A DNA stretch of 64,000 nt. Source: Octopus vulgaris. Taxonomy: Eukaryota. Numbering within the stretch: position 1 is the first letter of the stretch; every line of letters begins with the position of its first letter. Location: assembly GCA_951406725.2 (NCBI GenBank), contig OX597821.1, positions 21,018,001 to 21,082,000 on the forward strand, read 5' to 3'. Below, one piece after another: positions 1,176-52,249 of this stretch. Both the position numbers and the translations under genes were made by a program. Under the pieces are notes generated by a model. It saw nothing but the letters and a program-made list of their open reading frames with translations. It searched no databases and was not told where the DNA came from.

Positions 1176-2282
<1,107 letters not shown>

Positions 2283-33016: not shown

Positions 33017-33080
<64 letters not shown>

Positions 33081-33085
<5 letters not shown>

Positions 33086-33781
33086 TAAATAATAAGGGTA
33101 GAAATTGATGTTAATCAATTAAAACCAGTGGCTTAGCATATTCAAAAGTACGAATATTAAAAATTGTGTTACATGCAAAATTAAGAGGAATGACCACTAA
33201 AGTGGACACCCTATATGCTAAACATAGACGTCAAATCGCCATTACCACGAAGAATGTGTTCTCAAGAAAAAATTCAGCATAATGTTTAAATATGCTAAGC
33301 CACTGGTTTTAATGGATTAACATCGATTTCTACCCGTATTATTTAATTTTAAATTAAAAAAATGTTCTCTAAGAGGTAAATAGGCTGCTGAAATTTATTA
33401 ACTGCAGAGTAATTTCCGGTCTCAGCGCGCAAAATGAAGGCATTTGAAAAAATAGACCCGAATATAAATTGTAGAACTTGATACATGCTCGATTTCGGTT
33501 AAGCGTTCTGTACCTAGTTCTGGAAATTGTGTTTTGTAAGCGACTACGCTGACGATCTTGGAGATATCTATGTGTTTATATATGTAGATATTAACTAGTG
33601 AAACCAATTGTTACGTAGGTAATCGTTTTATTTCGTATGTTTTGATTTCTCTAGCTCATTTCCACATTTTGGCGTCCTGCTGAGATTTTTTTCTTGAGAA
33701 CACATTCTTCGTTGGAATGGCGATTTGACATTTATGTTTAGCATATAGGGCGCCACTTTAGTGGTCATTCCTCTTAATTTC
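33081..33781 (+). mobile_element. Hammerhead-bearing element with two interlocked inverted-repeat pairs (Penelope pLTR/retrozyme-like)
   Basis: 33081-33142 inverts 33289-33351; about 33178-33278 inverts about 33678-33781; hammerhead at 33544-33618. Confidence 0.8.
33544..33618 (+). ncRNA. Type I hammerhead with extended stem II
   Basis: CUACG-CUGACGA-...AUAUCUA/UAGAUAU...-GAAA-C-CAAUUG-UUA-CGUAG; perfect 5-bp stem I; base of stems II and III partly mismatched. Confidence 0.75.
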
Positions 33782-33790
33782 GTATATATG

Positions 33791-33829
<39 letters not shown>

Positions 33830-34135
33830 TTAAACTTAAAATAATAACGGTGAAAAGTTGAATATTAATTTGATTAATATCAATTTAAAACCACTGGTCT
33901 AGCATATAGAAAACTCTTAAGATTCAGAAAAATTATATTACATACATATAAGAGGGATGACCATTAAATGGACATCGATTATGCTAGAAGTCGACACCCT
34001 ATGGTCTTACCACTAAGAAAGGAATGTTCTCAAGAAAGTTTAGCAAACGCCAGAACTTAAGCGAGCAAGACAAATGAAAAGATACAAAATATACAGATTA
34101 ATCCCAAATCCGGTTTCGTTGTTATCACTTATGTA
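33830..34135 (-). mobile_element. Diverged relative of the 33081-33781 family, truncated at the 3' half of its hammerhead
   Basis: Shares CAATTTAAAACCACTGG.TAGCATA, AAGAGG.ATGACCA.TAAA.TGGACA and ATGTTCTCAAGAAA; minus-strand CGAAACCGG near 34109-34118. Confidence 0.6.
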
Positions 34136-34139
34136 ATTA

Positions 34140-34689
34140 CTTACATAGATATCCGAAACTCATGCTAGAACTGTTGCAAAGTGATCCTTTTAACGCCTGC
34201 ATAGTCTTTTTCTTCACCTCTTCAACATATGCAAATTCCGGAGCACCGGCTTTCTTCACTAGTAATGACCTTCGGAAAAAAATCTGGATCAACTTCCAAC
34301 TGTTTTTTTCAGTTCGCGACACGCATTCAGCTGTGCCTTTTTGATCTTCCTTAAGCAAGCAAGGCACACATTTTTATGCAAATCTTTCGATTCGCAATTC
34401 CTCGATCAAAATTCATTGTCAGGAGCTCCAGGAAACACTAGTTATATGCACAAGATTGTAAGTTGTTTGGTGACGGTCTTCCAAGATCCTAAAGCGTAAA
34501 AACCGCTGGTAAACTTGTGCTTTGCTCATAGCATTAGCTTTGTAAACTCTCACAAGCATTGCAACTGTTTCGGTTGCAGATTTCCCCGAAAAAATTAAAA
34601 GAACAACAGAATTTCTTCTTTTTCATCCATCGCAAAAACTGACGAGCAGGGGAGAAATACTGCAAAATAAAGAGGCTCCACGTGATTAA

Positions 34690-34690
<1 letters not shown>
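34140..34690 (-). mobile_element. Internally deleted mariner/Tc1 transposon relic
   Basis: Minus frames give FAYVEEVKKKTMQALK (mariner C-terminus-like) and a decayed KF/WVP-LL..DQK region. Confidence 0.55.
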
Positions 34691-34720
<30 letters not shown>

Positions 34721-34764
34721 TGTATGTATGTATGTATGTATGTATGTATGTATGTATAAATATA

Positions 34765-35885
34765 GTAGAAGAAAACACCCAGTGTTCCATTTCCCGTCAG
34801 CTGAGTACCGTGCTTCGACAAGATTTCGACCCGTTAAACTCAGCATCTCTCCACACAGTAGGCCCACAACAGCTAGACGTAGTACATTGAAACCGGACTC
34901 ATGACAGTCAGTTTTGAGGCCTTATACGCATTCACAATAATACGCATTATTGATCTTACGTAAACTTGTTTCAATCCTTGCTAGAGAAACTTCATATAGA
35001 GTTATGGGCCAAAGTAGTGTTAGGAGCAACCACACCTTGAACTTCCTTGGTAAACTTGCTTGATCAATGCTTTTTTAGACATGTCTCTGACTGCTTCTGC
35101 AGTTCAACACCACGATGTCTGTCTGTAAGTGGAAAACTGTACCATCTTCCTAGGCTTTTGACACTTTGCTCACGAACAGTTGGTATTTGCTCTCCACCGA
35201 TACTGAAAACCAAATTTACGAGCGATCAACCCTTCAGTGAACGACATCTGACTCCAGTTGATCAGTTCAGACAATCTATTCAAAACTTCTCTGGCAACCG
35301 TGATATTATCCTACAAAATAGTGAGATCATCCATGAACGCACTCAATTCTACTCCTCCTTGGTTTAACCTGTTCTCAGGCTTTAAGCTCCTCAGTATGAC
35401 CTCCATAACCATCACAAAAAGGACTGGGGAGATGGAACAACCCATTGCAATCCCCTTTTGTAGATCAATGTATTCAGTGGTGTACTTTGCAGTAGAGAAC
35501 CGAATCATGAACTAGTCAAAGTATAAGGATAGAACACCTCGGAGTTTGTGGCGCACATAAATCTCCAGGACTACTTGTATCATGTTATGAGACACAGGAC
35601 CATACGCATTTGCTAAGTCCAGCCATACAACATGCAGATCTTTACGCAATGCTTTCTTCTCTTTGATCTAAGGCCAAGTCATTGAGACATGCTCAAGTTA
35701 TCCTGGGAACCCTGGGACACCTGCTTTCTGTATACTAGTGTCCACAAAGCCATTGGCAAACAAGTAGTGAGCCGCTTTGCAAAAAGAGTGCAGAAGAGTT
35801 TTCCGTCAACATTCAGCGAAACTGAGGAAGTGTCATTGAGTTTTCGTCTTTGGGTATATAAATCCCATCAACGTATTAGGGCCAC
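34765..35885 (-). mobile_element. HERO/NeSL-like RLE non-LTR retrotransposon RT relic
   Basis: DLHVVWLDLANAYGPVSH, LQKGIAMGCSISPVLF, AFMDDLTIL and VKSLGRWY motifs, with stops. Confidence 0.85.
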
Positions 35886-40942: not shown

Positions 40943-40982
<40 letters not shown>

Positions 40983-41011
40983 GAGAAAGAAGCAACAAGA
41001 ATGGATTAGTG

Positions 41012-41100
41012 TTTAGTACAATTGTTTCATACAAAGACAGGCTTTATTACAAGTTGCAAACATTGCAGCAGATAAAAGTGTCCCGTACTCATCAGCTAAA
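41012..41100 (-). ncRNA. Type I hammerhead with long multi-helix stem II
   Basis: Minus: UUUAG-CUGAUGA-GUACGG GACA..UGCAA ugu UUGCA..UGUC UUUGUAU-GAAA-CAAUU-GUA-CUAAA. Confidence 0.8.
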
Positions 41101-41283
41101 ATACATATGAGTTCTCTAGACATCTTAGTGGGTGAGGTTATACTCATGAAATATTGGAGATAATTCCATTAGAGGCAGATATAGGTTGTAAACAGTTTTC
41201 AAAGTTCATTAATGATGATGCACAGTCTTATCACAGATTTTTAAAAACTTATTAGTTTCGAAGAGAAGATGAATCAATCCATA

Positions 41284-41716
<433 letters not shown>

Positions 41717-50682: not shown

Positions 50683-52249
50683 ATGTCTGTATGTCTGTAT
50701 GTATGTATGTATGTATGTATATATGTGTGTGAGATAGTTGGTATGTGAAAGCACGTGGTCGGATGTATAAAAAACAAAACAGAAGTTGAACACAGCTTCC
50801 CCGAAAATATTTCCATACATATCCTCTTACAACCTCAGAAGCAAAGAAGCCTTCACCATCATCAGCCAAAACCTACCAATGCTACATAAAGGAAATTAAA
50901 GGAAATTTTACACTCACTTGAGATCATTAAAAGCCATAATCAACTGAAGTTATTTAAAAAATCCTCACATAGGCGAAATTATTTTCTAAAATAACGGACG
51001 CAAAAGTGAATAAACGTGGTCGACCAAATTTCGCAATATGCCCCAACCTTCTAGAAGTATCAGAATTCCTTTTTAAAGATCGACAAATTTCTGATTTCAC
51101 TTGTACTACGGAAAACCTGATACATGTTATAAGATGCTCGGGCTGTCGCTAAAACTAAATAGGCTCCACGGGATAAACGCTCAGACGCCGATGCAGTCTG
51201 CACTGGCAGCAGATTGCATTCCCAGAGTACAGAACGATGTCCTTTAGTGAACACAGTGACAGATCGCAAAACAACTGCTACTAGAATTTGTAATCTTTCA
51301 ATTTCATCAATGTGCTATTAGAGCGCCAACACAAGTTAGATTAACCAAGGAAACCTACTTTCTTGAAAGATGTAAGCCGAAACTTGATTATTTTTTAGCA
51401 TTTTTAAATAAGTACGCTTACCTCATTGAAAAATATAAACCAAAACTTAACCAGTTCTAATGTTTTATTCTATCAAAACCAAATAATGTTAAATTAACAA
51501 AACCTAATCATTCCTAACATTTTTATTATCTCCCTTATACCGAAAAAAATCCTGGTTATCTCCGCCTGTTTCAAACTCTTCTTAATCACACCATAACGAA
51601 TACATAAAAACATCGGTTAACAAATGTAAGACATTTGAAATGAAAATGCGAAACCGGCTATTTCTCCAAAACCAACGTCACTATACACAACATTTTATAC
51701 CATTTTCCTAACATGACGATTTTAATATATTTTCAACCATATAATACAAATCTTCTGTAGTTTTTTCATTCTGTTTTGTTTTATATATATAAGTGTGTGT
51801 GTGTGTGTGTCAGAATCTCTGTGTGTGCGTGCGCGCATGCGTGTGTGTGTTGGAGGCGTGATCTTTTTTATGTATGATATATGTTTGACGTTCATGATAT
51901 ATATGGCATTTAACCGGCATATTCATTGATAGAATACTCTCCGATATTTGTACTCGCTCCCAAATCCTGACTTCAAACCCTATTACCTTACTGTATGTTT
52001 ATATTCTTTGGATCGATGTGTAAATGATAAGTAATGCTTTAATTACTAGTGAGAATGTCAGGGTGTAAAACGATATTCTTTGCAACACATATTGAGACTT
52101 AGTGCTCAATATGTGTTGAACCAATTTCAACAGGAAAAATAAACAAAATGACGTTCTCTGCGATCCCTCGCTGTGCTCAACGCGAAACTGTGGTACATTC
52201 GTAGTTAAGTTACCAATATTTGACTTCCATACTCCCAGATATTTATTTT

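What the first reader, a model, noticed from the sequence alone, without database searches (positions are those of the whole stretch)
33081..34135. Interlocked A-B-A'-ribozyme-B' element revealing a circularly permuted ~530-nt unit
Seen: the inverted left segment reads B then A in ribozyme sense, while the main segment reads A...hammerhead...B. The template therefore had A both before and after B. A diverged relative follows immediately across a TA tract. Inference: a tandem or circular RNA template, as for 1317-2047 but with unrelated sequence.
Basis: partly seen in the sequence, partly recalled or inferred. Interest (0 to 1): 0.7.

Follow-up and report, generated by a model that had tools for sequence, protein, structure and literature searches.

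The report
Penelope-mobilised hammerhead repeat, two-armed insertion
This is an aged copy of an abundant 527-base non-coding repeat with a predicted self-cutting RNA motif, likely pasted into TA repeats by a Penelope-type retrotransposon enzyme as two back-to-back arms, possibly copied from an RNA circle; its class is already known.

Summary
The anatomy is real. 33081-33785 is one insertion of a 527-nt non-coding repeat (F1; at least 2,422 first-look candidates in this 2.8-Gb animal genome) with a type I hammerhead motif. It consists of an inverted short arm and a long arm joined head to head. 33826-34161 is a separate insertion of a sister family (F2, 541 nt, 80% alike, own hammerhead) on the far side of the same TA tract. 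Arms end at two fixed sites about 95 nt apart, land in (TA)n, and in two-armed insertions nearly always use one site each (27 of 29 classifiable). This is the Penelope-like (PLE) footprint: a non-autonomous PLE / animal non-LTR retrozyme. A circular template fits: both passes share subfamily variants, and copying does not stop at the cleavage site. It is not shown: no arm exceeded 1.83 units, the two longest stop at one spot, and no RNA was examined. No partner PLE sharing sequence was found. The scan reported this pattern before in other families of this genome.

The parts
33028..33080 (.). (TG)n tract, preceded by TA-rich repeats; flank at the 3' end of the inverted arm
   Evidence: sequence
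33081..33279 (-). F1 short inverted arm, 5'-truncated: unit positions about 334-527 (B, linker, A); 3' end at the distal 'A-end' site
33280..33284 (.). head-to-head junction between the two 5' ends (few filler bases)
   Evidence: exact extent inferred
33285..33785 (+). F1 long arm: unit 462-527 (A'), then 1-432/438 of the next unit; 3' end at the proximal 'B-end' site
   Evidence: 92% to the family majority
33544..33618 (+). type I hammerhead motif, predicted cleavage after 33613; this copy has lost one helix III pair and one helix II pair relative to its family
33783..33825 (.). (TA)n tract shared as 3' flank by the F1 long arm and the F2 arm
33826..34161 (-). sister family F2 (541-nt unit), single 5'-truncated arm from inside hammerhead helix II to its A-end; separate insertion, tail to tail with F1

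Best explanation
This is one aged insertion of a 527-nt non-coding, hammerhead-bearing repeat that likely moves by borrowing the reverse transcriptase and endonuclease of a Penelope-like element, next to a separate insertion of a sister family. Shown: dispersed high-copy family, no ORF, partial tandems, two fixed 3' ends about 95 nt apart, variable 5' ends, (TA)n flanks, head-to-head arms with one arm at each 3' site, both arms and both passes carrying the same subfamily variants. Inferred: a PLE protein, probably a dimer, cuts both strands of a TA repeat. Each cut strand primes reverse transcription at one of two fixed internal sites of one structured RNA. The two cDNAs stop at variable points and are joined 5' to 5'. 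The template is intact across the hammerhead site and is read through more than one unit. I judge a re-ligated monomer circle slightly more likely (about 0.55) than an uncut linear tandem transcript (about 0.45).
For: Family size: 2,422 candidates, 40 scored; F2 3,364. Non-coding: longest stop-free stretch 68 and 88 aa. 3' ends: 46 of 94 segments at unit 420-439 and 26 of 94 at 520-9, 5' ends spread; F2 shows the same two sites. (TA)4 at the 3' end: 53 of 77 (F1) and 43 of 61 (F2) against 13% background. Head-to-head pairs: F1 13 A+B, 1 B+B, 8 with one arm elsewhere (of 22); F2 14, 1, 7 (of 22); p about 0.0009 and 0.0005. Within-insertion divergence is 6.8% (colinear) and 7.3% (inverted) against 10.0% between insertions. 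At subfamily-variable sites 104 of 117 (passes) and 93 of 112 (arms) agree, where about 53 and 50 discordant were expected. Only 1 of 72 F1 passes stops at the cleavage site, 2.1 expected. Hammerhead stem I has compensatory changes at 3 of 5 pairs between F1 and F2. Family majorities fold far better than 30 shuffles, z -6.7 and -7.7, with 108 of 176 pairs shared. Near-identical intact 781-aa RT+GIY-YIG ORFs exist in the genome, and the copies read end in (TA)n. PLE pattern in print: PMC8557442, PMC11167929.
Against: No autonomous PLE sharing sequence with F1/F2 was found among 33 PLE loci (blastn, nhmmer, tblastn), so the partner is unidentified; the intact family is much younger than F1. The distance between the two 3' sites (about 95 nt) exceeds the 30-40-nt tail in print. 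Against the circle: no arm reached two units (longest 962 and 886 nt), and both of these stop at unit 80-83, a recurrent 5' stop (7 of 78 in F1, 4 of 28 in F2) that could be the start of a linear transcript. Rfam does not recognise the ribozyme. The test of whether changed pairs still pair was marginal (23 of 43, p=0.054). All counts come from the top-scoring hits of a few queries, which favour long copies.
Confidence: 0.8

Rival explanations
1. Same PLE machinery, but the template is always an uncut linear transcript of a source copy about 1.85 units long that starts near unit 80; no circle is involved.
For: The two longest arms (L214 962 nt, L005 886 nt) both begin at unit 80-83, and 5' ends are enriched there in both families. 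No array of two or more units appeared in three long-query searches (40 scored each). In PMC11167929 the uncut RNA was the dominant substrate in vitro.
Against: A lineage of linear masters should let the two passes diverge and pass on pass-specific variants. None were significant after end columns were removed (p=0.13; the raw p=0.0006 was driven by end columns). Passes agree at 104 of 117 variable sites. Stronger soft stops occur elsewhere (unit 334-344, 459-469), and unit 80 lies beside a GC palindrome that could stall the enzyme.
Confidence: 0.4
2. The pieces are solo pseudo-LTR remnants of an autonomous PLE whose ORF-bearing copies have not been found, not an independent non-autonomous unit.
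For: PLE pLTRs carry type I hammerheads and give the same tandem and inverted pattern; retrozymes derive from pLTRs.
Against: Wherever copies continue 5' they continue into the previous unit, an inverted arm or unrelated flank; no shared ORF-bearing extension was seen in F1 loci or F2 loci. The unit closes on itself at 527 nt.
Confidence: 0.07
3. A satellite or foldback DNA element rearranged at DNA level (replication snap-back, unequal exchange), with a chance hammerhead-like motif.
For: Inverted repeats are present; the genome is rich in microsatellites; Rfam gives no ribozyme hit.
Against: Fixed 3' and variable 5' ends, TA targeting and the one-arm-per-site rule, stem I covariation between families, and a sense strand that folds better than antisense (-143.5 vs -109.7 kcal/mol in F1).
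Confidence: 0.03

Closest known systems
Animal non-LTR retrozymes (PMC7229834: passages and section 14 read; bioRxiv 10.64898/2026.07.22.740005: parts 1-3 of 5 read, supplements not seen)
   Same: Non-coding, low-GC (33-34%), highly self-paired unit with one type I hammerhead; tandem organisation; coexists with PLEs; unit length inside the 51-972 bp range of the preprint.
   Different: Longer than the 170-400-nt circles of coral, mussel and axolotl. Found here as dispersed 0.1-1.8-unit arms rather than multimer arrays; only 4 of 41 loci (plus L214) hold two hammerheads in line. Circular RNA not examined. No pLTR relative identified.
Penelope-like element insertions (PMC8557442 passages; PMC11167929 parts 1-2 of 4)
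   Same: [quoted passage not shown]
   Different: No ORF; tail about 95 nt rather than 30-40; the one-arm-per-site rule is near-strict here, whereas the anole enzyme showed no strand difference in start site in vitro.
Non-autonomous Chlamys elements such as MRC1 (PMC8557442 passage)
   Same: Non-autonomous PLEs forming pLTRs and head-to-tail copies.
   Different: Those resemble their autonomous partners at the 3' end, and most Chlamys elements lack hammerheads; F1/F2 have one and no matching partner was found.

Membership tests
Animal non-LTR retrozyme | Type I hammerhead in each unit | tested here: met
   Core and stems in F1 and F2; 40 of 64 F1 spans keep core and helix III; stem I covariation. 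Motif-level only; Rfam negative; the window copy is damaged.
Animal non-LTR retrozyme | Non-coding, low-GC, self-paired unit without LTR | tested here: met
Animal non-LTR retrozyme | Tandem copies with at least two hammerheads | tested here: met
   4 of 41 loci and L214; not met by the window copy; no long arrays seen
Animal non-LTR retrozyme | Self-cleavage and accumulation as circular RNA | not testable with these tools
   needs RNA; only indirect genomic signs
Animal non-LTR retrozyme | Sequence relation to a PLE pLTR | tested here: inconclusive
   no match in 33 PLE loci, mostly one young family; most PLE families of the genome not sampled
PLE-mobilised element | Partial tandem plus inverted 5'-truncated arm | tested here: met
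PLE-mobilised element | Two alternative 3' ends (optional tail) | tested here: met
   72 of 94 F1 segments at two sites; spacing about 95 nt, longer than in print
PLE-mobilised element | AT-rich or microsatellite target | tested here: met
Autonomous PLE | RT + GIY-YIG ORF | tested here: not met

The most novel reading that the evidence does not exclude
Each insertion was written from a single re-ligated 527-nt RNA circle by a dimeric Penelope-type enzyme that primes both cut DNA strands at two fixed sites 95 nt apart, the two polymerases chasing each other round the ring; the genome thus records rolling-circle retrotransposition of a retrozyme, a step proposed in print but not shown in the papers read.
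Probability: 0.45. Interest if true: 0.62.

Novelty: new member of a known kind. Interest (0 to 1): 0.36.

Why it matters
The class is known, and its PLE link has been argued from co-occurrence and pLTR trees. Here insertion anatomy in two sister families gives countable mechanistic rules (two fixed start sites, one per arm; same template variant in both arms and both passes; no stop at the ribozyme site) that make 'how PLEs build tandem and inverted insertions' and 'is the retrozyme template a circle' testable. This locus is an old, damaged copy, so younger families are better bench material. Five paper searches showed no description of these families; repeat libraries such as Repbase or Dfam could not be searched.

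Tried and rejected
RNA evidence: no RNA holder was listed; this is no evidence either way, and no reads were laid. Rfam: nothing at gathering score; only microsatellite-driven chance hits at E<=10. Partner search: 30 GIY-YIG loci plus 3 longer stretches gave no real match to F1/F2; one 30-nt hit at E 2.7e-4 upstream of a GIY-YIG was set aside as chance. A query for the part of the unit upstream of the hammerhead found no ORF-bearing extension. Long arrays: none among 40 scored hits each; a direct two-hammerhead pattern search of the genome could not be run, so rare arrays are not excluded. Pass-specific variants: apparent signal (p=0.0006) vanished when end columns were dropped (p=0.13). Nicked linear monomer with template jumping: disfavoured in F1 (1 of 72 stops at the cut site); F2 4 of 54, p=0.13. 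snRNA-type promoter upstream of the unit-80 stop, a lead from earlier notes: 25 of 30 U1/U2 loci share a motif that neither family has on its sense strand; rejected for these families. Sigma-70 scan is irrelevant to an animal genome. Rows dropped before counts: duplicate loci, segments under 50 nt or under 76% (F1) / 78% (F2) identity, CpG-like columns (42) in variant tests, and arm pairs with one end outside the two sites (8 and 7) in the binomial test. A few loci lost an arm to de-duplication (e.g. L006, L021), so pair counts are slight undercounts.

Full report
Observation. The window lies in a 2.8-Gb animal genome rich in microsatellites. Earlier scan notes call it an octopus; I did not test that. 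A type I hammerhead motif sits at 33544-33618. Rfam does not score it. The family alignment shows the full core and helices; the window copy has lost one helix III pair and one helix II pair.

Family. The long arm finds 2,422 first-look candidates (40 scored). Thirty copies are on average 93.8% identical to their majority, the window copy 92.3%. The unit is 527 nt and non-coding (longest stop-free stretch 68 aa). Of 41 distinct loci, 33 hold more than one unit in line, 4 hold two complete hammerheads in line and 16 have an inverted piece within 60 nt of the 5' end. 27 of 94 distinct segments run from B through A into the next unit. The samples are top hits of a few queries and favour long copies.

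The neighbour. 33826-34161 on the minus strand belongs to a second family, F2 (3,364 candidates; 541-nt unit, 405 of 509 columns identical to F1). It has its own hammerhead. It is a separate insertion, tail to tail with F1 across the TA tract; which came first cannot be told. Comparing the families supports the RNA structure: 3 of 5 stem I pairs change on both sides (14 sequences, essentially two lineages). The majorities fold at z -6.7 and -7.7 against 30 shuffles, the window unit at -2.6. 108 of 176 F1 pairs recur in the F2 fold; 9 are compensatory, 14 one-sided and 20 broken, and the 'still pairs' test is marginal at p=0.054.

Insertion footprint. 3' ends fall at two sites: 46 of 94 at unit 420-439 and 26 of 94 at 520-9; 5' ends are spread. 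F2 uses the homologous sites. 53 of 77 and 43 of 61 such ends abut (TA)4, against 13% background. In head-to-head pairs one arm ends at each site: F1 13 against 1 (8 unclassified of 22), F2 14 against 1 (7 unclassified of 22). I took this test from earlier notes e1-8807022 and e1-8807173. The window copy follows the rule. [quoted passage not shown] Two internal reverse-transcription start sites, cutting of both strands in AT-rich DNA and a predicted dimer are reported for an anole PLE (PMC11167929, parts 1-2 of 4).

Template. Repeats within one insertion differ by 6.8% (27 colinear pairs) and 7.3% (26 inverted pairs) against 10.0% between insertions. At subfamily-variable sites 104 of 117 and 93 of 112 comparisons agree, so both passes and both arms come from one source variant. 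Copying is not stopped at the predicted cleavage site (1 of 72 in F1, 2.1 expected; 4 of 54 in F2, p=0.13), so the template was uncut or re-ligated there. No pass-specific variants remain once end columns are removed (p=0.13). These results are what a monomer circle predicts. Against it, no arm reaches two units, and the longest (962 nt, L214; 886 nt, L005) both stop at unit 80-83, a soft 5' stop seen in 7 of 78 F1 and 4 of 28 F2 passes (I chose the window after seeing the data). That may be a transcription start or a stall at a GC palindrome. It is not preceded by the U1/U2 upstream motif of this genome. Other soft stops at unit 334-344 and 459-469 are stronger, and the window's two 5' ends lie in them.

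Partner. The genome holds many GIY-YIG matches, several in 781-aa open frames. One was confirmed as RT plus GIY-YIG, three copies are over 99% identical, and the copies read end in (TA)n. Its CxxxxCxxC linker suggests the Neptune clade (recalled criterion, consistent with a passage; no tree built). It shares no detectable sequence with F1/F2 and is much younger, so the actual partner is unknown.

Comparison and verdict. It works like a non-autonomous PLE and meets the genomic criteria of animal non-LTR retrozymes (PMC7229834, passages and section 14; bioRxiv 10.64898/2026.07.22.740005, parts 1-3 of 5; its supplements were not seen and might list related families). Cleavage and circular RNA are untested. 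New member of a known kind; interest 0.36. The scan has reported the same pattern for other families in this genome (unchecked notes) but none for this sequence.

Noticed in passing
window 1317-2047: Another hammerhead-bearing insertion (core at 1789) between TA tracts, with an inverted arm and partial tandem; unrelated in sequence to F1/F2.
   Followed up: partly
window about 40980-41290, minus strand: Third hammerhead motif (core at 41095) in a roughly 300-nt piece between TA tracts.
   Followed up: no
window about 34162-35520, minus strand: Broken non-LTR reverse-transcriptase fragment abutting the 5' end of the F2 arm; family not determined.
   Followed up: partly
window 50804-51278: Fragment of a PLE ORF (linker and GIY-YIG region, about 44% to the 781-aa protein).
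   Followed up: no
L067, L072, L091-L093: Young PLE family with many intact 781-aa frames; its 3' end carries a hammerhead-like motif with a variant core (UUGAUAA in place of CUGANGA) in at least 13 loci, and a long upstream region that looks coding.
   Followed up: partly
L208 632-1946: Two F2 two-armed insertions arranged as a mirror image, suggesting a later inverted duplication.
   Followed up: no
L217-L246, about -90 and -58: U1 and U2 genes of this genome share an upstream AATTAA-N25-29-TCAGT arrangement (25 of 30), a candidate snRNA promoter element.
   Followed up: partly
window 33420-33436 and its F2 homologue: A GC palindrome beside the recurrent 5' stop at unit 80 in both families.
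   Followed up: partly
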